64,000 nucleotides of DNA from Terriglobia bacterium (GCA_965206645.1 CBDBKE010000002.1:480001-544000), one strand, 5' to 3'. Shown: positions 7,108 through 57,603, counted from the first letter of the stretch. Numbers and translations are program-made. Notes: generated by a model not told the origin, from the letters alone.

Positions 7108-9065
7108 ATGAAAGAGGTAACTAAGCCCGGATTTCCTTTATGAACTATCGGCGGCAACCTTCTGAATGACTCCAACGTCAGTATTGATAGCCCGCGGGTC
7201 CTCCAGTTGTTAATCAAGCTGCATTGCCAGTTCCGGAGGTGTACACCGAATGGGTAGAGAGCCAAAAACAGTTGCGTGATGTCCGTTTCAACTGTCATTC
7301 AACCGGTTTCTGCGGGTCACATTTCAGGGATCGCGAATCACTTCCGACGGCGGTCTGATTGTGGTGCGCGAGTTGGACGAACGTTTGGGGTTCGGCGAAC
7401 TTATCGAACAGCACTTGATCGACTCTCGGGGGAAGAACACCCGGTTGCCCCTCGCTGACTTGCTGCGGCAGTCCATCTACAGCCGCTTGGCAGGATACGA
7501 AGACGTCAACGACGCCGAGCGGCTTTCCCGAGATCCGACGTTCCGGGTGATCGGTTCGGAGAAGATCTGGGAACGTGGCGCAGCCCTGACTTCCCGGTTA
7601 CAGTCGTTCGAGACAGAACTGCTGACGCAAGACGAGAACCTTGCTGGTTTGGCAGCGATCAACCGGGATTTGATCGCCAAGGCGGAAGCTATGGATGCGC
7701 CGCGCCGGGTGGTGCTGGACATGGACAGCACCGAGATCCCGGTCTACGGCGAACAGGAGCAGAGCGCCTACAACGGGCATTTCGAGTCGAGTTGCTATCA
7801 CCCGTTGTTGCTGTTCAGTCGCGAGGGTGACTGTCTGGCGGCCAAGCTGCGACCCGGCAACGTGCACAGCGCCGAGGATTGGGAAGAACTTCTCCTGCCA
7901 GAGATCGAACGGCAGCAGAAGCTGGGCAAGGAAGTGGTGTTTCGCGCCGACGCCGCCTTCGCCAAGCCGGAGATCTACGACGCACTGGAGGAGCGGGACG
8001 TGAAGTATGCGATTCGCATCCCGGCCAACGACAGTCTGGAGAGGGACATCGCGGAGTTGTTGACGCGGTCAGTGGGGCGACCGAGCCACAAGCCGGTGGT
8101 CTGGCACAAGAGCTTTCTCTACCAGGCAGCCAGTTGGAAAAAGGCGCGGCGGGTGGTGGCGAAGGTGGAGTTCCACTTTGGCGAACTGTTCCCTCGCGTG
8201 GGGTTCATCGTCACCAATCTGGAGACCGACAGCCGGGCGGTGGTCCGGTTCTACAACAAGCGGGGCACCGCAGAGCAATGGATCAAGGAAGGCAAGCAGG
8301 CGGTAAAGATGACCCGGCTGAGTTGCCATCGGTTTCGGTCGAACGAGGTGCGCCTATGGCTGAGCCTGATCGCCTACAACTTGGGAAACCTGTGGCGGCG
8401 GCTGGTGCTACCGAAGAGGATCAATAACTGGTCGCTGACGAGTTTGCAGCAGCGGCTGGTGAAAACGGGCGGACGGCTGGTGAAACATGCGCGATATTAC
8501 TGGCTTTTGCTGGCCGAAGGGCACTTGAGCCGGAGGCTGTTCAGCAGCATGCTGCGAACGATCTCGGCACTGCCGCTGCCAGACGGCTAGCGACCCAGGA
8601 GAGAGGGTAATTTTAGGTGCTCAGAAGTGGTCGGGCCGGACAAGTGTCAGCGGCGAGGCAGGCTGGGCAGGCGAAACCCGCACAGCGACTCCGAAGAACA
8701 GCCAAAATGTGCCGCACTACCACCTCAAAGAGGCCCGGGCGATTTGCGATTGACACGACAGGGTAAGAGGCATAGGTTTTCGGGTGAAGGGGAAGCTCAA
8801 AATGGAAATTCCGGCTAAGGAAGAATTCAAAAAGTTGCACTTCAAACTCGGCGGTGGAGCCGCCACAGGTTGGGATCGCGACTATTGGAACAAGTTTTTT
8901 GCGCACAACGAAAGAACTGACATGGAGTACTTAGTGGAAGAACGGGAAACGCCGGAGCACACCAGAATGATGATCGTCACTGACAATAGCGCGAAAGAAT
9001 ATCGTCTGTTCTTTTTAACTGAAGAGGCGGAGGATCGCTTTCTTGAGTTTCCGGAGGAAAGCTGA
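7108..9065 (+). pseudogene. Integron-cassette-like hypothetical gene interrupted by IS1380
   Basis: Removing 7126-8814 and one CTAAG restores MKEVTKEEFKKLHF...FPEES*; flanked by GTTATGC and GCATAAC. Confidence 0.75.
7126..8814 (+). mobile_element. IS1380-family element, transposase ORF 7361-8590 (5' end disrupted)
   Basis: Ends CCCGGATTTCC / GGAAATTCCGG; 5-bp TSD CTAAG; DMDST, FRADAAF, AEQWIKEGK motifs. Confidence 0.95.
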
Positions 9066-9071
9066 AGTGCG

Positions 9072-9096
9072 GCATAACAGGGCGCTGCTCCCGACG
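9072..9096 (+). other. Left half of an attC-like site
   Basis: GCATAACAGGGCGCTGCTCCCGACG 6 bp after the stop codon; GCATAAC is complementary to GTTATGC at 7083. Confidence 0.6.
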
Positions 9097-9340
9097 AGGC
9101 TTTTTGCTTACAGCAATGGACAGCGCACCAGCCTGCTTTAAGGCTTGCCCAATTGCTTTGACAACGAACTGCTTAAGCGTGATGCCCGCATGGCAGCGGT
9201 AGCCTTTGCCCGTCGCAACAGATCCCTAGAAGTCTATGGGGCTGCCTTTCGCGGTCCCGCCTTGTAGTTCCTCCTAGGCTTTCTTGCGACCAGCTTTCGT
9301 TGCTGCTGGATTCACTTTACCCGAATCAACAGAAATATTC

Positions 9341-9466
9341 GGCGGGACCTATCTACTCTCAGCTATTAAAGTGACGCTGCCTCCAGGTAGGCACTTGTCC
9401 GGATAGCCGACTATACGTCCAAGTGAAACCGGGATTGATAACGCTAGCCCGTTTGTGGCGACCTAT
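9341..9466 (+). repeat. Palindromic site cluster: Y half-site, X site (9392-9425), Y site (9433-9466)
   Basis: CACTTGTCCGGATA-GCCGAC-TATACGTCCAAGTG and GATTGATAACGCTA-GCCCGT-TTGTGGCGACCTAT; recurs in the window. Confidence 0.85.
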
Positions 9467-9534
9467 CAGGCTTTCCTGGACATGCGACCCGGCAGGCGAT
9501 AATCTTTGGTCCTTCCCCTCCGAGGGGGACAGAC

Positions 9535-9945
9535 ATGCGTAGGTTCTTGATTCGTTCCATAGGGCCGGGAATGGCACTGCTAGCCCTGGGGCTGCTCGCC
9601 ATCGGCCTAGTGGAGATGGACTTCCGCCCCGTCCTTGCCGACAAGCAATACTCCGTAGCGAAAACTCCAGCGGCCACCAAGCCGCAGGTGGTGGAGACTT
9701 TCGGGAAGCTGCCTCTCTATTTCATTGAGAACCAGGGGCAGCTCGACCCTCGCGTCGCCTACTACACCCAGGGTGGCGACAAGAACATCTACTTCACTAG
9801 CCGCGGGGTGACGTTCGCGCTGACACGCGCCGGGGAGGGAGAGCCCTCATCGGAGGCCCTCGTGCACCCCGTCTCTTACCGGGGGACCGGCGGCGCCAAG
9901 GAGCACGGTTCGCAAAGGGAAGCGCAGCGCTGGGTGTGGTCATGA
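9535..9945 (+). pseudogene. 5' fragment of an SBBP-repeat-type secreted protein
   Basis: FGKLPLYFIENQGQLDPRVAYY motif; truncated after RWV; inverted paralog at 29427-29832. Confidence 0.75.
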
Positions 9946-10155
9946 TCAAAGGGACCAGCACCCTGCTAAGCTGGATGTACAATCAGCAGACGCTCCCAAG
10001 GGGGTAGCTATGAGGAGGTGTACAATCTTGCCAAGGCTTCGAGGGCTTCTGGGAGTTTAATCCTCAATGGGTGGTGAAAAAAGCAACACGCCCGGCGACC
10101 AGCCAGCGAGGCAGTGCTTGGAAGCAGGAATCGGACCTTGGGCCGTTTCGCCAGT

Positions 10156-11451
10156 CTATCTCAGATGATGATCCGCGAAATCCAGAAAGCGGCGCCAGTC
10201 GTAGAGCTTGACCGAATGACCACCGCGGCGAATGTGGTATCCCACGTCACTCTCGATGATCGGTTGGTCGGGTTGCGGAGACGCTTCCGACTCCAGACCT
10301 TTCTTACCTAGGAGTCGATACACCTCGCTCGCGTGGTGCGCGGACAAATACTCCCCGCGCGGGTCGGCCCAACGATCCTCCACCGCACTTGCGACGTAAA
10401 CCGGCCGCGGAGCCATCAACGCCAGCAACATGTGTTGGTCGACGGGCAAGTCGTCTTCGCGATTGACGAACTTCCGCGCGTTCCCGCAGAGCCAATACGG
10501 GAAGCGGCTGCTCATCTTCTCGAGCGTCTCGCCGATTCTCCGGCGCCAGAGCGCCGCGCCGCCGGCACCGGATTGAACCGAGATCACCAGGGCGAAACGC
10601 TGGTCCTGCGCAGCGGCCCACAGCGCCGCCTTGCCCAGCTTGGAATGGCCCATCAGCAGCGTCCGGGTATGATCGACCTCGTCGTCGGTCGCGAGGTAGT
10701 TCAATGCGCGCATCGCTCCCCATCCGCATGCGGCCAGCACGCCCCACTCGCTCTCCTTGGGGAAGCTCTGCCCTTTCTTGTAGAACAACCGATGGATGGC
10801 CTCCTTGGGGGGGCTCTCTTTTGCCTCGGGGTGGAAGAACCCCCAATAGGGGCCGCGTTGGAAGTCGACTTCGTTGTTCGCGACAAGGTCCTGATGATAG
10901 ACCGACACGAAGGCGTACCCGCGGTCCAAAATCTCCCCGAGAGGCAAACCGATTTTGAGCATCGTTGGATGGCTCGGATCGACCTCGAGAAATTCGGATG
11001 TGTTGTCAATGAAGTTCAGAACCATGAAGGCGGGGGCGGGCTTTTTCTTCTGGGCCGGCACAAAGACCAGAACTGTCATGCGCGCCTCGCCGTATCGGTT
11101 TCGAAAGCGGATCGACACCCGTTTGCGAACGGCCTTGCCGCCCATGAAGTTCCGGTCCACGGCCTCGATCGTGAAGTCGGTCTTGATCGGGTCGGCAGGC
11201 ACAGGCACGCGCCCATAAACGAGATTCGCGAATAAAGACAGGATCTGCGGACGCCTCACGTGCATCCACTCTTCCGCCGTCTTGATCTCGTTGCCTTCCG
11301 CCGAGCCCAGCAGCGCCGGAAGGTTGTAGGGGACGATCTTGCTCTCGTCGTAATTGACGTCGCTGTCAAGCTCCTTCAGTTGCTGGGCCGGGAGAGTGAC
11401 GGCCCACGCGCAGACCGCTAGCAAACCGAAACGTGAGAGAACCCTCCTCAT
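10156..11451 (-). CDS. CE15-family (glucuronoyl-esterase-like) secreted esterase
   Basis: GHSKLGKAALWAAAQDQRF, LPVDQH, WADPRGE, YHIRRGGH; signal peptide from MRRVLSR. Confidence 0.85.
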   Translation of the reverse strand: MRRVLSRFGLLAVCAWAVTLPAQQLKELDSDVNYDESKIVPYNLPALLGSAEGNEIKTAEEWMHVRRPQILSLFANLVYGRVPVPADPIKTDFTIEAVDRNFMGGKAVRKRVSIRFRNRYGEARMTVLVFVPAQKKKPAPAFMVLNFIDNTSEFLEVDPSHPTMLKIGLPLGEILDRGYAFVSVYHQDLVANNEVDFQRGPYWGFFHPEAKESPPKEAIHRLFYKKGQSFPKESEWGVLAACGWGAMRALNYLATDDEVDHTRTLLMGHSKLGKAALWAAAQDQRFALVISVQSGAGGAALWRRRIGETLEKMSSRFPYWLCGNARKFVNREDDLPVDQHMLLALMAPRPVYVASAVEDRWADPRGEYLSAHHASEVYRLLGKKGLESEASPQPDQPIIESDVGYHIRRGGHSVKLYDWRRFLDFADHHLR

Positions 11452-11461
11452 TCCAATCCTC

Positions 11462-12328
11462 CTATCCGAAGATCCTGCTGAAGCCTTCGAAAGACGCTCG
11501 GAACCCATCCTCAAACGTTCCCCCTTCGGGCCGATAAACGCTCTCAAACGACACTACCCCCTCGTAGCCGTCGCGCTCGAGAGCGGTCGCGAGGTTCTCG
11601 AAGTACGGCGCCATCTGACCCTCGCCGAAGCGGCATTGCGCGACCGTCGCCCTGGGAATGTCCACCCGACAATCCTTGATGTGCAAATGGCCGAGGTAGC
11701 CCCCGCGCAACGCTTCGTATCCGTCCGGATAGGCCGACTCGGCGCAGTAGAGACTGTTGCCCGGGTCCCAGAGAATCTTTAAATGGTCGCTGCCCATATC
11801 GTCGACGAGCTTGCTGCCGAGGTAGCCGGACGTGATCATCGCGTTGTTGCCCGTCTCGACGACAAGAGTGACTCCAGCATCCTCGGCCAGCCGGATGGCC
11901 GGCGCCAGCAACTGCTTCAGCTTGTCCCAGGCTCCGATGCTGACGTTCCAGACCTCGGCGCCGCCCGAACCGAACAGGATCATCTCCTTGCGGAAGCTCA
12001 TGATCCGAACCAAGCCGCAGTCTAACGCCTTCGCCATTTCGATACAACGCCCGAGCGCCGCCATGTGACGGCAGTGAGCTTCGTCGCCGACTTCGGTTTG
12101 CCCCACGAGCATCCCCGCGAAGTTGTGGCGGGAGATGCAGCAGACTTCCATCTCGTACTGCTCGATCAGGTTTTGCGCCCGCGCCATTTGCGCGTCGTCG
12201 AGATCTCCGACCTCCTTGTCCCACAGAAACTGCAGTTCGCCGTACCTCAGCCTGAACTCCTTCATGACTTCGAGTGCGTGTTCGAATTCGCGGCTGATAC
12301 TGTCGGTGATGACTCCCAGCTTCCCCAT
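11462..12328 (-). CDS. Sugar-phosphate isomerase/epimerase (xylose-isomerase-like TIM barrel)
   Basis: VETGNN, LWDPGN, HLHIKD and SFE metal-binding motifs. Confidence 0.85.
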   Translation of the reverse strand: MGKLGVITDSISREFEHALEVMKEFRLRYGELQFLWDKEVGDLDDAQMARAQNLIEQYEMEVCCISRHNFAGMLVGQTEVGDEAHCRHMAALGRCIEMAKALDCGLVRIMSFRKEMILFGSGGAEVWNVSIGAWDKLKQLLAPAIRLAEDAGVTLVVETGNNAMITSGYLGSKLVDDMGSDHLKILWDPGNSLYCAESAYPDGYEALRGGYLGHLHIKDCRVDIPRATVAQCRFGEGQMAPYFENLATALERDGYEGVVSFESVYRPEGGTFEDGFRASFEGFSRIFG

Positions 12329-12341
12329 GCCTCAGCCCTCT

Positions 12342-13232
12342 CTACCAAGTCACTTTCGTGCCGGCAATCTCCTCGAGCAATTTTACGATCGACCAATTGT
12401 CTTCGTCGGGAAACCTCGAGATTCCCGCCTGGAACAGCTCGTACGCGGCGCTAGTGGTAAACATGGCCGCGCCGGCGTCGCGCGCGAGACTCATCGTAAT
12501 GCCGAGATCCTTATACATCGTTCCGATATGGCTGCCCGTCCCCTTGAACCTGCGATCCATGATGAGACGCGCGGAGTTCTCGAACAGCGGGCTGCCGGCG
12601 GCGCTCGAACGGAATACGTTGAACAGCATCTCACCCTTGACGCCGGCCTTGTGGCCGAGGACGAGCGACTCGAAGATGGCCGCGAAGGTCGCGCCGATGA
12701 AAGCTTGCAGCGCGGCCTTGACGGTCTGGCCTTGTCCGATCTCTTCGCCAACGTGGAAAACCACTTTCGAAATGGCGTCAAGCAAGTCACGATTCGCTTC
12801 GAGGACGTCAGCTTTGGCGGCGGTCATCAGCGTCAGGGAGCCGCCCTCGGCCCCCGACTTTCCGCCGCTGACCGGCGTGTCGATCAGATGGACGCCCTTC
12901 TCGGCCAGAGGCGCTTCGAGCACTCGCACTTCGGCCGGCATGATGGTCGCCGAGACGATGACGGTCTTTCCCGGCGCAAGGCCGGCCAGCAAGCCGTCAT
13001 TCCCGATCACCGCATCGCGCACCTGGACGCCGTTGAGCACCATGACGAACATTGCGTCACAGGCCTTTGCCAGCTCCGCACAGTTCGCCGCGCGTCGCCC
13101 ACCGGCGGCCTCGACCGTGGCGAGTCGCTCTTCGCGCAGGTCGAAGCCGACCAGCGGAAATCCGGCCGCCAAGACGTTCTTTGCAATGCCTAGGCCCATG
13201 TCACCCAGGCCGACGACTCCAACAATCTTCAC
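12342..13232 (-). CDS. NAD(P)-dependent oxidoreductase, 3-hydroxyisobutyrate/L-threonate dehydrogenase family
   Basis: VGLGDMG, DTPVSGG, GQGQTVK, MYKDL; GTG start after GAGG. Confidence 0.88.
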   Translation of the reverse strand: MKIVGVVGLGDMGLGIAKNVLAAGFPLVGFDLREERLATVEAAGGRRAANCAELAKACDAMFVMVLNGVQVRDAVIGNDGLLAGLAPGKTVIVSATIMPAEVRVLEAPLAEKGVHLIDTPVSGGKSGAEGGSLTLMTAAKADVLEANRDLLDAISKVVFHVGEEIGQGQTVKAALQAFIGATFAAIFESLVLGHKAGVKGEMLFNVFRSSAAGSPLFENSARLIMDRRFKGTGSHIGTMYKDLGITMSLARDAGAAMFTTSAAYELFQAGISRFPDEDNWSIVKLLEEIAGTKVTW

Positions 13233-13347
13233 TTTGCTATCCTCGCTCTCCTGACCGGGCGGAGCCCGCACGGATAAGCTTTGAGAATAGACTAGTCCGA
13301 GGGTCTGCGGGCATGGAAGAATTGAGCTCCTGTACGTTGGCCGCAAA

Positions 13348-14352
13348 GTGTTTTTGACTCGTCATCGCGCCATCGCCTTTGTGTTTCTCGCGGTCACTCT
13401 CGGAGCATGCTCCGGCCGTGACTCTACGTACCGTTTCCGCTACGCCAACGCCCAACCGGTGCAGCATCCGCGCAGCGAGTCAATGGTGTTCTTCGAGCGC
13501 GAACTGGAGCGCAGAACGGACGGCAAGATCGAGGTCGAAAACTACTTTTCCGGCGTCCTGGGCAACGACCGGGAGATGATGGACATGGTCGCCACCGGCA
13601 TCTTGCAAGGCACTCGCGGCGGTCTGTTCCCCGACGCCAACCCCAAGTACAATCTCTTCCTGCTGCCGTTCTTGGTCGAGGACTGGGACCAGGCGCTGCG
13701 GCTGATCTACAGCGACTTCACCGCCCGCATCAACCGCGAAGCGCGTGCTAACGGCTTCCACATTCCAGCCTGCGGCATCTCCCAGGGCTTTCGCGCTCAC
13801 ACGACGAGCGTTCGGCCGATTCGGTCACCCGGCGATCTCGTGGGCCTCAAGATGCGCGTCCCACCGCAGGAGGTCTACGTCGTCACCGCGCAAGCCTTCG
13901 GTGAGAATCCGCAGGAGATCCCCTTCATCGAGGTCTATCAGGCGATCAAGGCCGGGGTCATTGACGGCCAAGACAACGCACCCTCGAACATCTGGGACAC
14001 GAAGATCTACGAGGTCCAAAAGCACATGTCCATCACCAACTACAGCACCGGCCCCGACCCCTTCATCGTCAATCTCGATTGGTACGAAACTCTGCCTGCG
14101 GAGCTGCAAGTTCTCTTCGACCAAGTCGCGGTCGAAGCGATCCGATACAGCGATCGGCTGAACCGCGAGAGCGAGGCTGATTACATCAAGCGGCTCTCCG
14201 ACGAGCTTGAGGTCAACTACGTCGCCGGCGAGGCGCTCGAGCAGTTCCGCGAGAAAGCGCAAGCCGTTTACGAACACTTCGTCAAGAAGGGGTACTTTAC
14301 CTGGGAGGAGATCGAAGAGGCTCGCCGCGTTGCGCGAGGGGAAGCTCCGTGA
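13348..14352 (+). CDS. dctP: TRAP transporter substrate-binding protein
   Basis: Lipobox LGAC; DLVGLKMRV, EVYQAIKAGVIDGQDN. Confidence 0.92.
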   Translation: MFLTRHRAIAFVFLAVTLGACSGRDSTYRFRYANAQPVQHPRSESMVFFERELERRTDGKIEVENYFSGVLGNDREMMDMVATGILQGTRGGLFPDANPKYNLFLLPFLVEDWDQALRLIYSDFTARINREARANGFHIPACGISQGFRAHTTSVRPIRSPGDLVGLKMRVPPQEVYVVTAQAFGENPQEIPFIEVYQAIKAGVIDGQDNAPSNIWDTKIYEVQKHMSITNYSTGPDPFIVNLDWYETLPAELQVLFDQVAVEAIRYSDRLNRESEADYIKRLSDELEVNYVAGEALEQFREKAQAVYEHFVKKGYFTWEEIEEARRVARGEAP

Positions 14353-14849
14353 CCGTCATGCAGTCGCTGTACAGGTTGGAGGCGGCTCTCAGCCGGGCGC
14401 TCGAGGCGGTGGCGGCGGTCTGCCTGTGCGTCCTTTTTGGGCTGATCGTGACGCTGGTCTTGTTGCGGTACCTGTTCAATACGGGCATCGTCGGCGCCAA
14501 CGAAACCGCGACGGTTCTCTTCGTCTACGCGACTGCCTTGGGAGCCGCCGTCGAGGTGGGGCGCCGCGAACACATCGCCGTCACGTTCTTCGTGGACAAG
14601 CTCGGCGAACGAGCCCGCCGGGCGGCCGCCGGTCTCGCCTTCGCGCTGGTCGCGCTCATCAACGGCGTCATCGTCTGGCAGAGCCTGCGTTGGATCGCAG
14701 TGACCGGCGGCTACCTGATGCCGGCCACGCAAGCGCCGCGAATCGTTGCTCAGCTCGCCGTCCCGGTCGGTTGCGGGCTGGCGGTCGTCTACTGTCTGAT
14801 CGGGATCGCAACGACGCTGAAGGGAGACCGCGGGACTTCCCGGGTGTGA
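14349..14849 (+). CDS. dctQ: TRAP transporter small permease
   Basis: Four hydrophobic segments, RYLFN, EHIAV; overlaps the dctP stop. Confidence 0.88.
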   Translation: MTVMQSLYRLEAALSRALEAVAAVCLCVLFGLIVTLVLLRYLFNTGIVGANETATVLFVYATALGAAVEVGRREHIAVTFFVDKLGERARRAAAGLAFALVALINGVIVWQSLRWIAVTGGYLMPATQAPRIVAQLAVPVGCGLAVVYCLIGIATTLKGDRGTSRV

Positions 14850-14853
14850 CGTC

Positions 14854-16131
14854 ATGCTGGTCCTACTCGTCGCACTGCTGATCCTGATCGCTTTCGGCGT
14901 GCCGGTCGCCTACTCGCTCGGGTTGTCCGCTCTCGTCTTCTTCCTGATCGACGACCCTGCGCTGGTCCAGGTCCTGCCACAGCGGCTGTTTGCCGGGATG
15001 GACTCCTACGCCTTGATCACCTTGCCTTTGTTCATCCTCATGGGGCTCGTGATGAACGCCGCACAGATCACGGCGCGTCTGCTCGAGTTCGGCTCACTCT
15101 TTGTCGGTCGTCTCAAAGGCGGACTGGGTCTGGTCAACGTGTTTGCCAGTATGCTGTTCGGCGGGATCTCCGGCTCGTCCGCATCCGATACCGCGTCGAT
15201 CGGTTCCGTGTTGATCCCCGAGATGGAGAAACGCGGCTACCCGCTCGACTTCGCCAGCGGGATTACGGTCGCGTCGTCGACAATGGGGATGATCATTCCA
15301 CCCAGCATCCCGATGGTGCTCTACGCGGTGGTGTCACAGGCGTCTGTCGGACGGCTCTTTCTCGGCGGTGTCATTCCCGGCATCCTAATCGGCGTCCTCC
15401 AGTTGGGCATGGTGGTGGCGATCTCTCGGCGGAGGGACTACCCGCGTGAAGAAGTCGCGCCGGGATGGCGTCACGCGATCCGGGAGACGGGCCGCTCGGC
15501 ACCAGTGCTGGCGATGCCCCTCTTCGTCGTCGGCGCGGTCGTTCTCGGCGTCGCTACCGCGACGGAATCGGCGGCCTTGGGGGTGCTCTACGCGCTGGCA
15601 ATCGGCTTCTTCGCGACCCGCGTGATGACGTTCGGTGCTTTCCGAGAATGCTTACGTCAAAGCGGGCTCACCAGCGCCAAGATCATGCTGATCATCGCCT
15701 TTTCGCAGGTCTACATCTGGGTCCTGGCGCTCGAGCGCGTCCCCGAGGCTGTCGCCGCCTTCGTCGTCGAGCTCGGTCTGGGGCCGACGGCGACGTTATT
15801 GGTCATCGGCCTGATAATCCTGGTCGCGGGGACGGTGATCGACGTGAGCCCAGCGATTCTGCTGCTGACGCCCGTCTTCCTGCCAGCGGTGACCGAGGCC
15901 GGCATCTCGCCCGTTCATTTCGGCGTCATCCTCGTCTCCGGCCTGGCCGTTGGCGCCTGCACCCCGCCCGTCGGCAATTGCCTGAACGTGTGCGCAGCGA
16001 TTTCCAAGCTCGGCATCGGCTCGATCTTTCGCGGCGCGGCTCCGTTTCTTGCAGCGAACGTTGCCGTCATGCTGCTTATCACGCTCTTCCCGAGCTTGGT
16101 GCTGTGGCTGCCGGCGGTTCTGATGGGATAG
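14854..16131 (+). CDS. dctM: TRAP transporter large permease
   Basis: GGISGSSASD, IIPPSIPM, TPPVG. Confidence 0.93.
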   Translation: MLVLLVALLILIAFGVPVAYSLGLSALVFFLIDDPALVQVLPQRLFAGMDSYALITLPLFILMGLVMNAAQITARLLEFGSLFVGRLKGGLGLVNVFASMLFGGISGSSASDTASIGSVLIPEMEKRGYPLDFASGITVASSTMGMIIPPSIPMVLYAVVSQASVGRLFLGGVIPGILIGVLQLGMVVAISRRRDYPREEVAPGWRHAIRETGRSAPVLAMPLFVVGAVVLGVATATESAALGVLYALAIGFFATRVMTFGAFRECLRQSGLTSAKIMLIIAFSQVYIWVLALERVPEAVAAFVVELGLGPTATLLVIGLIILVAGTVIDVSPAILLLTPVFLPAVTEAGISPVHFGVILVSGLAVGACTPPVGNCLNVCAAISKLGIGSIFRGAAPFLAANVAVMLLITLFPSLVLWLPAVLMG

Positions 16132-16521
16132 CTCTAGTTCCACCAAGGACGGTGTGTGCTCGGTTTCTCCTCCTAGCCTTCGTCTTGCGGGGAATGCTTC
16201 TCGCCCTCGGGCGGCCGACGCTGGACCGTCTCTTCTCAGTAAGCGCGTCCTGGAGCGAGCTCGGTTTGTCTTTCCTGTGGGCAAGCTGGCCCAAACTTTG
16301 GCACGGGGAAATGGGGGCTGGGGTGCCCCACCAACAACCCACCATTGCCCTCTGGTTTCGCGTCCCGCAACGTGGACGATTACGGCATGTCCTTCTTCCG
16401 TTGCCTCGTTGGCCATGGACAGGGAGAATCAACCGCACAACACTTGATTTCCCCAAGCCTCGCCGTCGAATCTATTCCTCTGGAAGCTGGCGAGATACCG
16501 CCTTCTCACCAGCAATGCCGG

Positions 16522-16705
16522 ATAGATCCCCACTAACGGCCTAGCGTTTATCAATCCCGGTTTCAGTTGGACGTATAGTCGGCTATCCGGACAAGTGACC
16601 CTCTACGCCCGCCAGGGTAGTGGGTCAGTTTCCGATAAGCGCGTTATACATCCAAGTAACCGGCGTGGCAGCATCGGTAAACACTAACCGTCTAGTGGGA
16701 CCTAT
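16522..16705. repeat. Back-to-back junction Y(-) X(-) hairpin X(+) Y(+)
   Basis: Y 16522-16555, X 16564-16597, hairpin 16596-16627, X 16625-16658, Y 16673-16705. Confidence 0.85.
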
Positions 16706-16762
16706 CCACCGAATCTGAGGTAAACGTCTTTTACTCATAGACTTGGGCTGAGTCGAAGCAGG

Positions 16763-17472
16763 CTACTCGACGGCAATGGTGACGGTGTTGGAGGTGACGC
16801 CGCCAATGGTTAGAACCACATCCACCGCATCCCCCGTGGGGGCGTTCTCCGGAACCTGCACGTTAACCTGATAGAGCCCCACGAAACCTGGAGCCAGGCC
16901 GGAGAAGGTCACGTCGGCGGCTATGCCGGCGATGTTCACCATCGGCAGGCTAACGGTTCGCGCCAGCGGCTCAGCGGTGGGTGCAACCTGGCCGGACTGG
17001 ACTTCGGGCTGTACCGGACCGAACCCAGTGCAAAAGATCAGGAGGAACTCGCCGGGCTGTGCGGGCGCACTGTCGTTGACTGGCTGAAAATCATCCGCGT
17101 GAAGAATTGCCCCTGGACCGGTACCCTGCTGGTTCAGCGTAAAAACACCCGGCGATACGGCCGCCATCCCAATCGGCTGCGCCGTGCTCGTTTCACTACC
17201 TCGTTTCACCTGCACCGTGACCGAACCCGTTCCCTCATCAGCTCGAACGGAACCTGCGCATTTATCTGCGTACCCGACACGAAAAACAGCGGGGCCGGGA
17301 TATTGTTGAAGGTCACGCTGGTATCCCCCAGCGTGGTGGGAAGAGGCACGTCCGATGCCACCTGGGTATCACTCGCCAGGTCCGTCCCAAAGATGGCCAC
17401 AATCGCGCCGGGAGGGATGGCTCCATTCGGGTCCGTCGCCGCCCGATTGGCGGTAGCCCGAAAGACCCCCAC
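16763..17472 (-). pseudogene. TIGR03437-type (Solibacter) C-terminal domain fragment, frameshifted
   Basis: PLFFVSGTQINAQVP and FSGLAPGFVGLYQVNVQVP lie in different frames; no N-terminus. Confidence 0.8.
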
Positions 17473-17693
17473 CGTGCGAACGGTTCACAAGCTGGCGCGG
17501 TCCCAAAAGGAAAGGAGAGGGAACCACACCCCAGTGGCGACCCGATAAACCTTTTGCCCGTCTCCGGAGATGGATGGCTCCGCGCGTGGCGGCATAGACC
17601 TTGGCGTGATCCCGATCCTGAATCCCACGCGCCAGGTCGTGCTGGCCGGAGTAATATCACATAGTTCACTGGGCAGTTCCGTGAGGTGGCGAA

Positions 17694-29426: not shown

Positions 29427-29832
29427 TGACCACCCATCGCTCCGCTTCCCTTTGCGGAGCGTGCTCCTTGGCGCCGCCGGTCCCCCGGTAAGAGGCGGGG
29501 TGCACGAGGGCCTCCGATGAGGGCTTTTCGTCGCCGGCGTCCGTCAGCGCAAAGGTCACACCGCGGCCAGTGAAATAGATGCTCTTGTCGCCACCCTGGA
29601 TGTAGTAGGCGACGCGGGGGTCGAGCTGCCCCTGGTTCTCGATGAAATGGAGAGGCAGTTTTCCGAAAGTCTCTACCACCTGCCGCTTGTTGGCCGCTGG
29701 AGTTTTCGCTGCGGAGTATGGCTTGTCGGCAAGGACAGGGCCGGAACCCAGCTCCACCACCGCGCTGGCTAGCAACCCGAGCGCTAGCAGCGCCATTCCC
29801 GGCCCTATGGAACGAATCAAGAACCTACGCAT
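29427..29832 (-). pseudogene. Second SBBP-type 5' fragment
   Basis: Inverted paralog of 9535-9942, ending at the same point. Confidence 0.75.
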
Positions 29833-29900
29833 GTCTGTCCCCCTCGGAGGTGAAGGACCAAAGATTATCGCCTGCCGGGTCGCATGTCCAGGAAAGCCTG

Positions 29901-29975
29901 ATAGGTCGCCACAAACGGGCTAGCGTTATCAATCCTGGTTTCAGTTGGACGTATAGTCGGCTATCCGGACAAGTG
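29901..29975 (-). repeat. X site (29942-29975) and Y site (29901-29934)
   Basis: Reverse complement of 9392-9466 with few differences. Confidence 0.85.
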
Positions 29976-30001
29976 CCTACCTTGCGGCAGCGTCACTTTA
30001 A

Positions 30002-33000
30002 CCCGGATTTCCTTTTTGGAAACGCAGCGGCAACCTTCAGCTAACCTCCAACGTCAATATTGATACTGGTTGCAGCATCAATCGGAGCGTTCGGAGGCGT
30101 AAACCCAATGGGTGAGAGCGGAAAACAGGGATTTCAGCTGTCGTTCAACCGATTTCTGCGAGTCGGGTTTCAGGGATCACGGGTGACTTCCAATGGTGGA
30201 CTGATTCTGGTCCGGGAGTTGGATGAGCGTCTGGGATTCAGCGAACTCATTGACGAGCACCTGACCGATTCGCGGGCAAACAATGCTCGGTTTTCTTTCG
30301 CGGACTTGCTGCGGCAGTCGGTCTACAGTCGCCTAGCTGGATACGAGGATGTAAATGATGCCGAGCGGCTGTCGCAAGACCCGACCTTTCGGCTGATTGG
30401 TTCAGAGAAGACTTGGGAACGAGGCGCGGCGCTGACCTCCAGGTTGCAAACTTTCGAGACGGAGATGCTGGCGAAGGTGGAGAACTTCGTCGGGTTAGCC
30501 CGGATCAACCGGGAACTGATCGGAAAGGTCGAAGCCTTCCAGTGGCACTACCGAGCGGTGCTGGATATGGACTCAACCGAGATTCCGGTCTACGGGGAGC
30601 AGGAACAGAGCGCCTACAACGGGCGCTTCGAGTCCACTTGCTATCACCCGCTGCTTTTGGTTCAAGAGAGTGTCTCACCTTTAGTTGAAAGTTGAGCGGC
30701 GGTTCGCTGACCTGGTTCCGTAGAATCGGGTTGGGAAACTTTCTGGAAAGGGGAACCGCCGTGCAGAGAAGCTACCACATCCTAGGCCGGAGCGATAGCC
30801 GAAGCTCCCGCAAACTGGCTGCCTACCTGGCTCGCCACGGGCAGTTTCTGCTGCCCTGGGTGGAGTTGATCGAACAATCGCGGTTAGCCGTCGACGAGCT
30901 GATCGACGTGGTGGGTAGGGCGGCGATTGAAGCGGTGCTGGAGTTGTCGGCCGCGCAGGTGGCCGGTCCACGCCGTCAGGGCCGGCGGCGCCGTGGGGTG
31001 GGCTGGTATGGGCGCCAGCGGGGACGGGTGCGCCTGAAGGAGAGAAAGCTGGCCGTGCACAGGCCACGGCTCCGGCGGCCAGGCCGGGGAGCGGGGAAAG
31101 AAGTTCCCCTCCCGGCCTACGAAGCCATGCAGGAGGGCGAGGGTCTGGGGGCCCGGATGTTGGATATCTTGCTGCGGGGCGTCTCGACCCGGCAGTACCA
31201 GCGGGTGTTGCCGGAGATGGCGGACACCGTGGGTGTGTCGCGCTCCACGGTCAGCCGGGAAACGATGGAGGCTGCCGCAGCCGAGTTAGAACGTCTGTTG
31301 AACCGCCGCTTCGAGGAAGTAGAGTTGCTGATCCTCTACATCGACGGGATGGTGTTTGGCGACCATCACGTGATTGCGGCTGTGGGCGTGGATGCGGAAG
31401 GGCACAAGCACGTGCTGGGGATTCAGCAGGGGGCTACGGAGAACGCCGCGGCCGTCCAGGACTTGCTGGAAGGTTTAGTGCGGCGAGGGGTGCAGCCGGC
31501 CCAGAAACGGCTGTTTGTGATCGACGGCTCGAAGGCCTTGCGGGCGGCGATCCGCGCCGTGTTCGGGGCCGAGCAGCCGGTGCAGCGCTGCCGCGCCCAC
31601 AAGTTGCGCAACGTCCTGGACCGGTTGCCGGAGCCAGAGCGGGACCAGGTGCGGGCGGCGATGCGGGCCGCCTGGCGGTTGGATCCGAAGACCGGCAGGG
31701 CCAAGCTGGAGAAGTTGGCCCAATGGTTGGAGCGAGATTGTCCGGCCGCGGCGGCCAGCTTACGGGAGGGTCTGGAGGAATGTTTCACCATCAACCGGCT
31801 GGGGCTTCCGGCTTCGCTACATCGCTGTCTGGCCACCACCAATCTCATCGAGAGTCCGCAGGCGGGAGTGAGGTTGCGAACTCGCCGGGTGTGCCGCTGG
31901 CGGGATGCGGCCATGGTCCAGCGCTGGGTCGCCTCCAGCTTCCTGGCCACGGAGAAAAACTTCCGCCGCCTGATGGGGTACCAGGACCTGTGGATGTTGA
32001 AAGCGATCCTCGAAGGATCAAAGTCGGCCACTCGACGGGAGGTGGCGTAGTCGGATGGCTCCGAACCGCCGCTACGAACTTTCAACTGAGTTCAGGACAC
32101 CCTTTTGTTCAATCGAGACGGCGACTGTCTGGCGGCCCAGCTGCGCTCAGGGAATGTCCACAGCGCCGAGGACTCGGATGAACTATTGCTGCCGGAGATC
32201 GAACGACAGCAGGCTGAAGGCAAACAGATCACCTTTCGCGTCGACGCCGCCTTCGCCAAGCCGGAGATCTACGAGGCGATGGAAGAGCGTGGCGTGGACT
32301 ACGTGGTCCGCATTCCGGCCAATAGGACCTGGAGCTGGAGATCGAGGACATCCTGTTTCGGCCGCCGGGCGGGCCCTCCCGCAAACCCTTGGTGCGCTAC
32401 AAGAGTTTCCGCTATCAGGCGGGGAGTTGGTCGAGGGCCAGAAGAGTTGTCGCCAAGGTGGAGCATCACCAGGGCGAGCTATTCCCGCGCGTCGGATTCA
32501 TTGTGACGAGCACGAGCTTGCCGAGTCGCTCGTTGGTGCGGTTCTACAACAAGCGCGGCACGGCCGAGCAGTGGATCAAAGAGGGCAAGCAGGCGACGAA
32601 CTGGACGCGTCTGTCGTGTCATTGTTTTCGGGCCAACGAAGTGCGGTTGCAACTTGCAGTGCTGGCGTACAACCTGGGGAACTTGTGGCGACGGCTCGGG
32701 CTGCCTCACAGGATCAAGACGTGGTCACTGACGAGTTTGCAGCAGCGGCTGATGAAGACCGGCGGGCGGCTGGTCAAGCATGCCCGGTATTATTGGCTGC
32801 TGCTGGTTGAGAGGCATCTGAACCGGCAACTGTTCGGAGCGATGGTGGGGCGGCTAGATGGGCTGCCGCTTCCGTCGGGACAGCTCAGGCTGTGGCAGCA
32901 TCCAAGAAAACGATTCCGCTATCTCCCCAGGAATGGAGAGTTGCCGCTGACCAGACCGATTTTTTCGAGAAATGGTCCTTGATGAGCCTCCAGCAGCGGC

Positions 33001-33347
33001 TGGTGAAAACCGGAGGACGGCTCGTAAAACACGCACGGTACTACTGGCTCCTGCTGGCCGAGGGCCATTTGACCCGACGGCTGTTTGCCAGCATGCTGGG
33101 GCGGATCGATGGATGGGCACTCCCGTCGGGATAGCCTGGGCTACGGCACACAAGAAAACGATGCCGCTATCCCCCAGGTATGGAGAGTTGTCTGAAAAAG
33201 CTGGGTTTGGATGCTGATTGGACGGTTTTAGGGGACCCCGAAAGGGACGCTCGGAGCCGATGGTCCTCTCGGAGAAAACATTGTACTCGCTGGGACGCAG
33301 ATGCGTGTATATTTTCAATCGCCGGAAGGCCAAAAAGGAAATTCCGG
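30002..33347 (+). mobile_element. Disrupted, mosaic IS1380 copy
   Basis: Left end 30002, right end 33347; interrupted by IS256; 32140-32947 is a divergent IS1380 variant; 3' end duplicated. Confidence 0.88.
30666..32104 (+). mobile_element. IS256-family element (transposase about 30761-32050)
   Basis: RGVSTR, YIDG, VIDGSKAL, QRCRAHK, TTNLIES; inverted ends; 8-bp TSD TGGTTCAA/TTGTTCAA. Confidence 0.92.
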
Positions 33348-33555
33348 TAGAATACTAGCACCGCACTGCACAAAGGTATCGCCAATCGAATCAGTACTGC
33401 AATGCCGTTTCGTAACACTTAACGTCCTTATAACACCCAGACGAAGCGACCTTGAAGGAAGTCATGCGGCGGTTCGGGGCGATCGGGCTCCCGACCTACG
33501 TCATCCTTGAGCCGAACACGCTACGCCAGCCGCCCCCCGAACCGACGGCCAAAGG

Positions 33556-38297: not shown

Positions 38298-38315
38298 TTT
38301 AATAGCTGAGAGTAG

Positions 38316-38399
38316 ATAGGTCCCGCCTAGTCGGCTAGATCCACGTCACACCATCCAGGCAGAACATAGGTAAACACTAACTCGTTAGGCAGGATCTAT
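38316..38399. repeat. Two Y sites, (-) 38316-38349 and (+) 38366-38399
   Basis: Cores GCCGAC and ACTCGT; flank CACACCATCCAGGCAGAAC shared with 49723-49741. Confidence 0.8.
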
Positions 38400-38528
38400 C
38401 CGCGTTTGGTGGTCAGAAGTACTGTTGTCGCCACGTGTCGATTGGCCAGCACTAGGTTTCTCGAACAAAACCTGAATTGGGGTTACGCCGAGCGGACGGT
38501 GACGTAGCAGTTCGCTTCACCTCCGGGC

Positions 38529-41753: not shown

Positions 41754-42179
41754 GACGCTGATCCCGCTGACTCTCCGCTGACGGCCCACCGCGTCTCATA
41801 CGCAAGGTAGCCGTTGCCGGCACGGAAGTAGCCATCACTGTCCGCTAGAGCGGACGCAACTGACAAAAGCGCCCAAGCGATCAAGACTGCGGTGGTCACT
41901 CTCATGATCGAACGTTACCTCATGTCGTTTAACTGATGTTTAGGCCGACCTGGATAAAAGGGGTCCTGATCGGCCTGAGACGAAACCGCCAGCGGCGAGC
42001 CGGGCCGGCAACCGCTTTGATTGTAACGATTTCTCCCATGTCCGACAACTTTCCTCCCAGTGTTAGGCCGACCGGTCAGTCCCGGATAATCCCGCCTGTC
42101 GCCAAGAATGCCGGATATATCTCGTCTGACGCCCCAGTTCTTTCCGATCCTGCTGCCAACTCCCTTAAAGTCGGCATAG

Positions 42180-42249
42180 CGGAAACTGACCCTCTACGCC
42201 CGCCAGGGTAGTGGGCCAGTTTCCGATAAGCGCGTTATACATCCAAGTG
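42180..42249 (+). repeat. Complete hairpin followed by an X site (42216-42249)
   Basis: CGGAAACTGACCC...GGGCCAGTTTCCG then ATAA-GCGCGT-TATACATCCAAGTG. Confidence 0.8.
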
Positions 42250-47588: not shown

Positions 47589-47771
47589 ATCCTAAGCCCC
47601 GCCCGCAGGCAGTCAACGCGGGGAGCCGGCCAGTTGCGACGGTGGTCTTTCGCTGCCGCCTCTAACGTCCGCGGTCACTTGGACGTATAGTCGGCTATCC
47701 GGACAAGTGACCCTCTACGCCCGCCAGGGTAGTGGGTCAAGTTTTCGATAAGCGCGTTATACAGCCAACTG
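47589..47771. repeat. Repeat Z promoter plus X(-) hairpin X(+) junction
   Basis: TTGACT-16-TAGGAT (minus strand); X 47676-47709; hairpin; X 47738-47771. Confidence 0.85.
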
Positions 47772-49741: not shown

Positions 49742-49898
49742 ATAGGTAAACGCTAGGCCGTTTGTGGGGACTATCGGCCTTGTGCGCGAGGCCTACTTCC
49801 CCTAAAGGGAATCCAGGCACTTGTCCGGTTAGCGCGTTACACGTCAAAGTGGGCGGCGTGGTAGCATAGGTAAACACTAGCCGACTAGCGGGGACCTA
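49742..49898 (+). repeat. Y (49742-49774), X (49818-49851), Y (49866-49898)
   Basis: Cores GGCCGT, GCGCGT, GCCGAC. Confidence 0.85.
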
Positions 49899-50154
49899 TC
49901 TGCCGAGTCTGAGCCAACTCGTGCCGTTTCAGAGGATTACTGCAGCCTGAGAGGGTATCAGCGGCGAGGCGAGATTGGAGGTGGGAAAATACACCAAACA
50001 AGCGCCGGGGTCAGCTAGGCAGGTGAGCGAAATTGCGGACCAAATTCGGAAGCCTACGTTAGAACCCGCAGTGAACACGCAGAGAAGATGAGAGGCCCCC
50101 GGGGTCTCGCCTCGACGATGGACGAGACCCCAGGAGCCAGTGGCGCAGGAGATC

Positions 50155-52258: not shown

Positions 52259-52477
52259 CGTGTACGTACCGTGGATTGTATTGCCATCGGCGAAGGAACC
52301 GCGCTATAGCTTTGTTGGGTTACCCGAGGAGGCATAGGGTGTTTAGAGAGACTCGGTGCTCAAAGCATACAGGGCCTAACTAGCCCGTGGATACTCTCCC
52401 TCGAACCCGAGCGTCTCCAGAACCCGATGGGCACCGCCGGAGAGGATCCTGTTCGCAGGTAACTCTGGCGTGGCAGC

Positions 52478-52511
52478 ATAGGCAAACACTAACCGACTAG
52501 TGGAGACCTAT
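52478..52511 (+). repeat. Y site
   Basis: ATAGGCAAACACTA-ACCGAC-TAGTGGAGACCTAT. Confidence 0.8.

Positions 52512-57526: not shown

Positions 57527-57603
<77 letters not shown>

What the first reader, a model, noticed from the sequence alone, without database searches (positions are those of the whole stretch)
16522..16705. Two X-Y end types with swapped 6-bp cores, and a hybrid site
Type alpha (9392, 16564, 29942): X core GCCGAC, 7-8-bp linker, Y core G(C/G)CCGT. Type beta (16625, 49818): X core GCGCGT, 14-bp linker with GGCGTGG(C/T)AGC, Y core ACCGTC or GCCGAC. The core GCCGAC thus appears inside both X and Y arms. The 49818 site has the alpha-type left arm but the beta-type core and linker. 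Arm/core reassortment is what strand exchange at the core would leave (inference) and hints at left/right ends with two crossover points.
Basis: partly seen in the sequence, partly recalled or inferred. Interest (0 to 1): 0.75.

Follow-up and report, generated by a model that had tools for sequence, protein, structure and literature searches.

The report
Mosaic palindromic repeats, not crossover sites
The stretch is one full copy of a lineage-specific family of extragenic palindromic repeat units, much like the REP and BIME repeats of other bacteria, and its two "end types" are simply the two unequal arms of that palindrome.

Summary
Window 16521-16705 carries an alpha arm (Y then X) and a beta arm (X then Y) in inverted order around a 28-nt central hairpin. 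The named 6-nt cores are there. The alpha X sequence occurs 4 times in the window against 0 expected by chance.

It is a dispersed repeat: 150 module hits in 87 clusters in this 4.4-Mb Terriglobia genome, dozens in all 3 same-genus genomes, and little beyond the genus.

The "cores" are the loops of stem-loop units. X units carry a GTAG tag on the centre side in 65 of 104. Clusters are extragenic in 86 of 87. Inverted X doublets resemble REPINs.

Arm/core mosaicism is real but one-sided and old:
- All four arm/core combinations occur (36/13/19/34).
- The core never separates from its outer flank (0 of 89).
- The Y core never separates from its linker.
- The 49818 "hybrid" belongs to a tight subfamily found in three genomes.

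Three orthologous comparisons place replacement junctions at unit boundaries, not in cores. No recombinase or RAYT gene is associated. This is a new member of a known kind, and the mobilising enzyme is unknown.

The parts
16468..16520 (+). Conserved lead-in to the left of the alpha Y unit
   Evidence: blastn of 16132-16530 in the own genome: repeated from about 16468-16497 at 5 other places. The same lead-in is seen before other Y-alpha copies.
16521..16562 (+). Y unit, alpha form (loop 16536-16541), plus the short linker to X
   Evidence: nhmmer module Ya. Sequence. Y stem pairs are Watson-Crick in 72% of cells over 111 distinct copies, against 16-23% with the partner column slid.
16563..16597 (+). 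X unit, alpha form (loop/core 16578-16583 = GCCGAC on the other strand); an imperfect 34-nt palindrome
   Evidence: The exact form at 9392-9425 folds as DNA at -7.7 kcal/mol, z -4.4.
16598..16625 (+). Central hairpin C, holding the two facing GTAG tags (GTAG at 16617-20, its complement at 16603-6)
   Evidence: nhmmer module C. GTAG count. Fold.
16626..16658 (+). X unit, beta form (core GCGCGT 16639-16644); not a palindrome on its own
   Evidence: A near-identical copy does not fold (DNA, z +0.8).
16659..16706 (+). Beta linker (GGCGTGGCAGC, 16662-16672) and Y unit, beta form (loop ACCGTC 16687-16692)
   Evidence: The ACCGTC loop is a 1-of-111 variant of the ACCGAC class.
16707..16745 (+). Conserved trailing stretch with a further small inverted repeat, shared with other Y-beta copies
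9343..9472 (-). Half element: truncated Y end and linker (9343-9391), alpha X (9392-9425), alpha Y (9426-9472)
29900..30001 (+). Alpha Y + alpha X + left part of the linker, cut by a composite transposon at TTTAA (29997-30001)
   Evidence: (pair I2).
38298..38420 (+). The other half of the element interrupted at 29997: TTTAA, the rest of the linker and two Y units
   Evidence: The uninterrupted form is at 9343-9392.
42099..42249 (+). Degenerate alpha arm, central hairpin and beta X
   Evidence: (D9, D10).
47675..47771 (+). Inverted X doublet without Y units (alpha X, centre hairpin, beta X)
49742..49899 (+). Composite of the 'hybrid' subfamily: Y (alpha type, reversed) 49742-49779, a 38-nt spacer, X with T1 arm and K2 core 49818-49851, and beta linker + Y 49852-49899
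52467..52511 (+). Solitary beta Y unit
   Evidence: (D12).

Best explanation
The stretch is one complete copy of a lineage-specific family of extragenic palindromic repeat units. It is built like REP doublets (REPINs) nested in a BIME-like mosaic.

There are two kinds of roughly 35-nt stem-loop units:
- X, tagged by GTAG on its centre side.
- Y, without a tag.

The units stand in the order Y-X-centre-X-Y, so the whole is a roughly 190-nt imperfect palindrome. Alpha and beta are its two unequal arms. The 6-nt "cores" are the loops of the units, and they are the places where the two arms differ consistently.

Shown here:
- The unit structure.
- The copy number.
- The restriction to one genus.
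- The extragenic placement without bias to gene ends.
- The GTAG tags.
- The discrete subfamilies.
- Between close relatives, whole units or linkers are gained, lost or replaced, with junctions at unit boundaries.

Inferred:
- The units spread as non-autonomous DNA that folds as hairpin or cloverleaf in single strands. Their architecture resembles that of substrates of HUH (RAYT-type) enzymes.
- The mosaic arises from unequal recombination, slippage and conversion between homologous units, not from site-specific exchange in the loops.

The enzyme that moved them is not identified.
For: Family and distribution:
- 83 blastn matches of the 221-nt unit in the own genome.
- 150 module hits in 87 clusters, of which 4 are full copies and 8 hold the X-centre-X doublet.
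- All 3 other same-genus genomes have 21-31 matches. Outside the genus, 3 of 27 genomes have 1-4 weak matches.
- A public scan found 10 stretches, all in three Terriglobia/Acidobacteria MAG records.

Unit structure:
- The whole unit folds as one long hairpin: -101.7 and -107.4 kcal/mol, z -6.1 and -5.3.
- Alpha X folds on its own, z -4.4.
- In K1-type X the outer stem pair switches from C-G to G-C between subfamilies: T1K1 pairs in 31 of 36, T2K1 in 11 of 19.
- A GTAG tag lies within 14 nt on the centre side in 65 of 104 X units, against 1 of 104 on the other side and about 3% expected.

Placement:
- 86 of 87 clusters lie outside crude gene calls. Their contexts are 42 tandem, 24 divergent and 20 convergent, which equals the shares of random non-genic positions: 53, 24 and 22%.

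Subfamilies:
- Within-class identity is 0.80-0.94 against 0.57-0.79 between classes. The T1K2 class has a private signature in 12 of 13 units.

Junctions at orthologous loci:
- A 72-nt linker-plus-X unit is present in G000 and absent in G001, with the junction at the inner end of X.
- The outer neighbour of X is replaced, with the junction at the outer end of X.
- A whole X type is replaced, with the junction near the Y/X boundary.

Insertion sequences and literature:
- Insertion sequences sit in or beside the units.
- REP traits as described in PMC3733652 (passages read) and REPIN traits as described in PMC3116915 (abstract and passages read) match on tag, doublets, extragenic spread and two alternative folds.
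Against: - No cognate enzyme. The one good RAYT gene (NF047646, 117 bits against a cut-off of 80) and a second Y1-like gene are flanked by other repeats.
- G001 and G003 (96-97% complete) have no Y1_Tnp match, yet each holds about 30 element matches.
- None of 13 Y1_Tnp loci holds an X, Y or centre module with E below 0.3.
- Beta X does not fold and T1K2 X pairs only at its outer 6 bp. RNAalifold gives no consensus structure for X or Y alone. Y shows one-sided changes only, with no compensatory pairs.
- The T1K2 subfamily lacks GTAG (0 of 13).
- No target duplication or clean filled/empty site for a whole element was found: 5 of 55 relatives' loci were collinear with G000 and all 5 shared the element.
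- The complete linkage of core with outer flank, across a nearly identical outer arm, is not what free homologous exchange predicts. It fits descent of a few subfamilies better than frequent exchange.
- Many copies sit beside paralogous genes, so some copies arose by duplication of larger segments.
Confidence: 0.6

Rival explanations
1. X and Y are core-type sites of a site-specific (tyrosine) recombinase. Binding arms flank a 6-bp crossover region, and exchange at the cores reassorts arms.
For: - Alpha X and the palindromic Y have a 14-6-14 layout like lox or dif sites (sequence; the comparison with lox and dif is recalled).
- All four arm/core combinations exist.
- The junction of reassortment lies between the centre-side arm and the core.
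- The genome has 36 Phage_integrase-family matches.
- Elements often sit where synteny with relatives ends.
Against: - The X core never leaves its outer flank (0 of 89) and the Y core never leaves its linker, so at most one junction class exists.
- Hybrids form an old, tight subfamily.
- Three orthologous junctions lie at unit boundaries, none in a core.
- Beta X lacks dyad symmetry.
- Recombinase genes are not enriched near clusters: 5 of 36 within 5 kb against 4.8 expected.
- The nearest recombinase ORF (56428-57510) scores 30.7 bits against a cut-off of 265 for integron integrase.
Confidence: 0.08
2. The unit is a structured RNA element (a small RNA, or a stabiliser or terminator in untranslated regions), and the repeats are copies of an RNA gene or motif.
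For: - Strong predicted folds on both strands.
- Many G-T pairs in Y on the strand running outward from the centre, for example 52 of 111 at one pair.
- Some copies directly follow stop codons.
Against: - No Rfam match even at E up to 10.
- No terminator-like or promoter-like site in 16100-17000.
- No bias to convergent or tandem gene ends.
- No compensatory pairs in Y.
- Palindromes fold well by construction.
Confidence: 0.1
3. The full copy is a miniature inverted-repeat element of a DDE insertion sequence. The Y ends are its terminal inverted repeats, and the half copies are broken elements.
For: - The ends of the full copy are inverted repeats.
- The genome is rich in insertion sequences of the IS1380, IS3 and Mutator families.
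Against: - The conserved sequence continues beyond the Y ends.
- No target duplication was seen beside the four full copies.
- Recurrent partial forms have fixed module boundaries rather than random breaks.
- The insertion sequences seen here end in other sequences.
- A parent element was not searched for systematically.
Confidence: 0.08
4. The units are not mobile at all. They are conserved flanks of paralogous gene families, multiplied by segmental duplication and kept alike by gene conversion.
For: - A 571-nt inverted duplication (9366-9936 and 29431-30001, 91%) carries a gene start plus the alpha arm.
- Several copies follow the same paralogous gene ends.
- Elements at orthologous loci differ more than their flanks do: about 80-90% against 95-99%.
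Against: - The units stand beside many unrelated genes and in all three kinds of intergenic context, in random proportion.
- X doublets occur without any shared flank.
- GTAG tagging and doublet architecture are those of known mobile repeats.
Confidence: 0.12

Closest known systems
REP sequences and REPINs (GTAG-tagged REP superfamily; REP doublets forming hairpins)
   Same: - Imperfect palindromes of about 35 nt with a GTAG tag outside the stem.
- Head-to-head inverted doublets with a spacer.
- Tens of copies, spread over extragenic space without context bias.
- Two alternative folds, a long hairpin or separate unit hairpins.

Traits taken from PMC3733652 (passages) and PMC3116915 (abstract and passages). 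Tested here.
   Different: - No RAYT gene is flanked by these units, and two genomes of the genus have no Y1 transposase match at all.
- The beta X unit is not a palindrome.
- A second, untagged unit type (Y) is fixed outside each X.
- The loop types are swapped between the X and Y positions of the two arms.
Bacterial interspersed mosaic elements (BIMEs) of Escherichia coli (recalled, not read here)
   Same: - Two unlike palindromic unit types stand in alternating inverted order.
- They are joined by a small set of conserved linkers.
- Many combinations are found in extragenic DNA.
   Different: - The sequences are unrelated and the units are nested (Y outside X).
- Binding of host proteins is not testable here.
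- The family is confined to one Terriglobia genus.
TIR repeat families beside RAYT-like (TIRYT) genes of Acidobacteria (PMC3733652, passages)
   Same: The same phylum. The Y1 transposase genes of this genome are likewise flanked by their own inverted repeats rather than by GTAG REPs.
   Different: The X and Y units are not the repeats that flank those genes.
lox/dif/attC-type recombination sites (recalled)
   Same: Alpha X and the palindromic Y have a 14-6-14 layout. The folded form has mismatch islands, as in folded attC sites.
   Different: - No recombinase is associated.
- Beta X has no dyad symmetry.
- There is no array of one orientation beside an integrase gene.
- The junctions lie outside the cores.
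Neisserial intergenic mosaic elements and Correia elements (recalled, not read here)
   Same: Mosaic extragenic repeats that mark rearrangement points and attract insertion sequences.
   Different: Unrelated sequence and a different unit structure. No target duplication was seen here.

Membership tests
REP / REPIN-RAYT system | Short (20-40 nt) imperfect palindrome | tested here: inconclusive
   Alpha X (34 nt) folds at -7.7 kcal/mol, z -4.4. Beta X does not fold (z +0.8), and T1K2 X pairs only at its outer 6 bp.
REP / REPIN-RAYT system | GTAG tag at one end, outside the stem | tested here: met
   65 of 104 X units have GTAG within 14 nt on the centre side, 1 to 5 nt from the unit. The other side has it in 1 of 104, and about 3% is expected. 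By class: T1K1 27 of 36, T2K2 28 of 34, T2K1 9 of 19, T1K2 0 of 13.
REP / REPIN-RAYT system | Inverted doublets with a spacer that fold as a hairpin | tested here: met
   8 of 87 clusters in G000 hold X-centre-X. Long-hairpin fold at z -5 to -6.
REP / REPIN-RAYT system | Extragenic, many copies | tested here: met
   86 of 87 clusters lie outside crude gene calls. 66 X hits in G000.
REP / REPIN-RAYT system | A RAYT gene flanked by the same units | tested here: not met
   Both Y1 genes of G000 are flanked by other repeats. G001 and G003 have no Y1_Tnp match. None of 13 Y1 loci holds a module with E below 0.3.
BIME-like mosaic | Two or more unit types in inverted order joined by a small set of linkers | tested here: met
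   Five recurrent centre-side contexts and six outer contexts of X. Printed clusters.
BIME-like mosaic | Binding of host proteins (IHF, gyrase, polymerase I) | not testable with these tools
   No binding data.
Tyrosine-recombinase core site (lox, dif) | Two inverted binding arms around a 6-8 bp crossover region | tested here: inconclusive
   The layout is met in alpha X and the palindromic Y but not in beta X.
Tyrosine-recombinase core site (lox, dif) | A cognate recombinase gene nearby or co-occurring | tested here: not met
   5 of 36 Phage_integrase matches lie within 5 kb of a cluster, against 4.8 expected.
Tyrosine-recombinase core site (lox, dif) | Recombinant junctions inside the core | tested here: not met
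   Three orthologous comparisons place the junctions at unit boundaries.
Integron attC array | Sites in one orientation between cassettes, next to an integron integrase | tested here: not met
   The sites are dispersed on all four contigs in both orientations. The nearby recombinase ORF scores 30.7 bits against a cut-off of 265 for integron integrase.
MITE of a DDE insertion sequence | Terminal inverted repeats shared with a parent element, plus target duplication | tested here: inconclusive
   No duplication was seen beside the 4 full copies. The insertion-sequence ends read here differ. A parent element was not searched for systematically.
Any Rfam RNA family | A covariance-model match | tested here: not met
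   No match over the whole window at gathering score except one tRNA. No match at E up to 10 in 16400-16850.

The most novel reading that the evidence does not exclude
The units could be the substrates of an unrecognised single-strand, hairpin-reading transposition or recombination system that is not a RAYT. In it, two hairpin-tip types would mark left against right:
- One is the GCCGAC type, found in alpha X and beta Y.
- The other is the GCCCGT/GCGCGT type, found in alpha Y and beta X.

The two types stand in opposite order in the two arms. The fixed junction between the centre-side arm and the X loop would then be the place where the enzyme cuts and joins.
Probability: 0.1. Interest if true: 0.65.

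Novelty: new member of a known kind. Interest (0 to 1): 0.3.

Why it matters
- It adds a well-resolved repeat family from an uncultivated Terriglobia genus to the REP/BIME class.
- The family carries GTAG tags and a doublet architecture but has no cognate RAYT gene, and two genomes of the genus have no Y1 transposase match at all. This bears on the open question of whether such repeats always depend on a RAYT.
- Practically, the units mark synteny breaks and attract insertion sequences.
- They also break short-read assemblies, with depth 10 to 70 times that of the flanks.
- They should therefore be masked or modelled when genomes of this group are assembled and compared.

Tried and rejected
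- **REP-RAYT link.** Looked for Y1 transposase genes flanked by the units. None was found.
- **Recombinase link.** No enrichment near clusters.
- **Rfam.** Nothing.
- **Plasmid collection.** No match.
- **Earlier findings of this scan.** Nothing to show.
- **Consensus structure.** RNAalifold gave no structure for X alone or Y alone.
- **Public runs.**
  - 20 runs of 11 studies hold part of 9000-17500, and no RNA holder is listed.
  - Contigs of four runs laid on that stretch break inside the repeats (at 9370/9377, 16588/16596 and 16628).
  - Only two low-depth "opposite strands" joints appeared, both in one run (9376 with 16657, and 9398 with 16596; depth 4.3 and 2.0; 36-37 letters on the shorter side). 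The inverted repeat itself explains them.
  - This gives no verdict on inversion.
- **Clean filled/empty site for a whole element.**
  - Of 55 relatives' loci, 5 were collinear with G000 and shared the element. One showed the 72-nt unit indel. The rest had flanks mapping elsewhere or nowhere.
  - G000 loci C2:434-445 kb have no collinear counterpart in G001 or G003.
  - At C3:302 kb, G001 holds only the right flank, without modules and without the left flank.
- **Cassette or transposon idea** (beta arm, genes, alpha arm with half centres at the ends). Dropped, because the segments hold ordinary unrelated genes and the outer sequences are again shared flanks.
- **Synteny break at 16206 with G001.** It lies 260 nt outside the repeat.
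- How far those motifs are over-represented therefore stays open.
- **Supplements.** No supplementary files of any paper were opened.

Full report
**What is there**

The window is G000:C2:480001-544000 of a 4.41-Mb genome in 4 contigs. Several lines point to an uncultivated Terriglobia (Acidobacteriota) lineage:
- the titles of public records that share the repeat;
- a Solibacter-type C-terminal domain in the ORF next to the finding (TIGR03437, 150.9 bits).

The alpha X (34 nt, core GCCGAC) occurs at 9392, 16564 and 29942. A fourth copy at 47676 was not listed. That is 4 matches at up to 3 mismatches, and none appeared in 100 shuffles.

The beta X (core GCGCGT) stands at 16626 and 49818. Further copies stand at 42213 and 47735.

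The linkers and Y cores are also as described.

**The unit**

Window 16521-16705 is one element made of five modules:
- Y-alpha (16521-16562);
- X-alpha (16563-16597);
- a 28-nt central hairpin (16598-16625);
- X-beta (16626-16658);
- Y-beta with its longer linker (16659-16706).

The two arms are diverged inverted copies of each other. The stretch therefore folds as one long hairpin on either strand, with z -6.1 and -5.3.

- Alpha X folds on its own (DNA, -7.7 kcal/mol, z -4.4).
- Beta X does not fold (z +0.8).
- The "hybrid" X pairs only at its outer 6 bp.
- Y hairpins are weak, z -1.5 and -2.1.

Conserved sequence continues on both sides, from about 16468 to about 16745.

**A dispersed family**

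- The 221-nt unit gives 83 blastn matches in the own genome.
- Profile searches with the five modules give 150 hits in 87 clusters. Four are full copies, 8 hold the X-centre-X doublet, and many are halves or single units.
- Partial matches end at recurrent module boundaries.
- All 3 other genomes of the genus hold 21-31 matches. Of 27 genomes outside the genus, 3 have 1-4 weak matches.
- A Y unit is found in a genome of another family of the class (L006, E 2e-10).
- Plasmid records hold nothing and Rfam holds nothing.

**Where the units sit**

With crude gene calls of my own, 86 of 87 clusters lie outside genes. The calls used open frames with a third-position G+C bias, and they recover the Pfam-supported ORFs of the window.

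The flanking genes are tandem in 42 clusters, divergent in 24 and convergent in 20. Random non-genic positions give 53, 24 and 22%. So there is no preference for gene ends.

No terminator-like or promoter-like site lies in 16100-17000.

**REP-like traits**

X units carry GTAG within 14 nt on the centre side in 65 of 104 distinct units, at 1 or 5 nt from the unit in most. The other side has it in 1 of 104, and about 3% is expected. In the X-centre-X doublet the two tags face each other inside the central hairpin.

In K1-type X the outer stem pair is kept through a change on both sides. T1K1 has C with G in 31 of 36 units, and T2K1 has G with C in 11 of 19. K2-type X is not compensated, with only 2 of 34 pairing in T2K2.

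These traits are the ones that define GTAG-tagged REPs and REPINs: the tag, head-to-head doublets, extragenic spread and two alternative folds. I read this in passages of PMC3733652 and in the abstract and passages of PMC3116915.

**The missing enzyme**

The genome has one good RAYT gene (NF047646, 117.1 bits against a cut-off of 80) and a second weak Y1-like gene. Both are flanked by other repeats.

G001 and G003 are 96 and 97% complete and have no Y1_Tnp match, yet each holds about 30 element matches.

None of 13 Y1 loci from G000, G002 and G005 holds an X, Y or centre module with E below 0.3.

Membership in a REPIN-RAYT system is therefore not met, though the elements look and behave like such repeats.

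I collected 133 X hits from G000 and from 55 loci of relatives. Of these, 104 were distinct with E at most 0.01.

The centre-side arm comes in two forms, T1 and T2, and the core in two forms, K1 and K2. All four combinations occur: 36 T1K1, 13 T1K2, 19 T2K1 and 34 T2K2, with 2 unclassified. A pattern-based count gave 36, 14, 18 and 35, with 1 unclassified. So arms and cores do not always go together.

The mosaic is one-sided, however:
- K1 is followed outward only by the alpha Y or two other contexts.
- K2 is followed only by the beta Y or two others.
- There are 0 exceptions among 89 classified units.

For Y, I used 111 distinct units. The alpha linker goes with the GCCCGT loop class in 40 of 44 and never with ACCGAC. 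The beta linker goes with the ACCGAC class in 23 of 24 and never with GCCCGT. There is thus no second crossover point.

**The hybrid at 49818**

It belongs to the T1K2 class. This class has several marks of a discrete subfamily:
- a private inner-arm signature in 12 of 13 units, seen in 1 of 36 T1K1 and in none of the 53 T2 units;
- the highest within-class identity (0.94);
- no GTAG tag (0 of 13);
- members in G000, G001 and G003 loci.

It is an old subfamily and not a fresh recombinant. A few ancient events suffice to explain the four combinations.

**How units change between close relatives**

Three loci with orthologous flanks in G000 and G001 are informative.
1. At G000 C2:95.6 kb, G000 has a 72-nt piece (a linker plus a whole T1K1 X) that G001 lacks. 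The junction is at the inner end of X, where the sequences before and after the piece are alike.
2. At G000 C4:2128 kb, the left flank is 98.8% identical. The neighbour outside X is an alpha Y in G000 and another linker in G001, and the junction is exactly at the outer end of X. The far side maps to another G000 locus.
3. At G000 C2:894 kb, the alpha Y is shared but the whole X and what follows are of different types. The junction is near the Y/X boundary.

None of the three junctions lies in a core. This is what unequal recombination, slippage or conversion between homologous units would leave. That last step is inference.

**Recombinases**

The genome has 36 Phage_integrase-family matches. 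Five lie within 5 kb of a cluster, against 4.8 expected from random placement. The ORF at 56428-57510 beside a tRNA gene is far below the integron-integrase cut-off (30.7 against 265 bits).

**Public reads**

Twenty runs of 11 studies hold part of 9000-17500. Contigs of four runs from four studies were laid on that stretch:
- They cover the flanks of the 16521-16705 copy on both sides.
- They break inside the repeat.
- They show 10 to 70 times the depth of the flanks over 9284-9567 and 16384-16667.
- Two low-depth "opposite strands" joints in one run are explained by the inverted repeat itself.

This gives no verdict on inversion.

**The swapped loops**

- The loop and apical stem of alpha X match those of beta Y (the GCCGAC type).
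- Those of alpha Y resemble those of beta X (GCCCGT against GCGCGT).

The stems therefore follow a palindromic order while the loop types do not.

This asymmetry is the main feature that a plain REP/BIME reading leaves unexplained. It is the basis of the novel case.

**Verdict**

The best reading is a lineage-specific, GTAG-tagged, REP/REPIN/BIME-like mosaic repeat family whose mobilising enzyme is unknown (confidence 0.6). Literature searches for such repeats in Acidobacteria (listings only, apart from the two papers named) found no description of this family.

Noticed in passing
window 29997-38302: A composite transposon lies here.
- Two IS1380-family copies in inverted order (arms 29997-30659 and 37640-38302, 100% alike) bracket an 8.3-kb segment.
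- Both ends are flanked by TTTAA. The uninterrupted target at 9366-9375 has a single TTTAA.
- The left copy is itself cut by a Mutator-family transposase gene (30692-32050).
- The cargo includes a 916-aa coiled-coil, SMC-like ORF (33556-36306).
- It is inserted in the linker of an X-linker-Y element.
   Followed up: partly
G000 C4:68653 and C4:1177193: A second element, with an end like that of the IS1380-family copies, abuts the outer arm of beta-type X within 2 bases of the same position at two separate loci. The units seem to be insertion hot spots, as REPs are in other bacteria (that comparison is recalled).
   Followed up: no
L011 1354-1983 (G000 C4, about 710 kb) and L012 1351-1938 (G000 C4, about 116 kb): One RAYT gene is flanked by a 20-nt perfect hairpin on both sides. 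A second Y1-like gene is flanked by copies of another roughly 24-nt repeat. Both repeats are unrelated to X and Y, like the TIR-flanked RAYT-like genes reported for Acidobacteria.
   Followed up: partly
window 1-64000: Only 10139-16206 is collinear with the closest relative G001 (94%). The rest of the first 20 kb is absent there or matches only repeats. The window holds at least five IS1380-family copies and several IS3-family copies. A tyrosine recombinase ORF (56428-57510) stands beside a tRNA gene (57530-57603, minus strand). All this suggests a large accessory region.
   Followed up: partly
window 9366-9936 and 29431-30001: A 571-nt inverted duplication (91%) carries the start of a paralogous gene (weak DUF7948 match) that abuts the alpha Y unit. 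At least six such gene starts in the genome stand about 20 nt from a Y unit, so their promoters must lie in or beyond the repeat.
   Followed up: no
L006 1505-1541 (G017, another family of the class): A Y unit matches with E 2e-10, so Y is more widespread than X and the full element.
   Followed up: no
window 9284-9567 and 16384-16667: In contigs of four public runs the summed depth over the repeats is 10 to 70 times that of the flanks, and contigs end inside the repeats. The family is abundant in those communities and breaks short-read assemblies.
   Followed up: no
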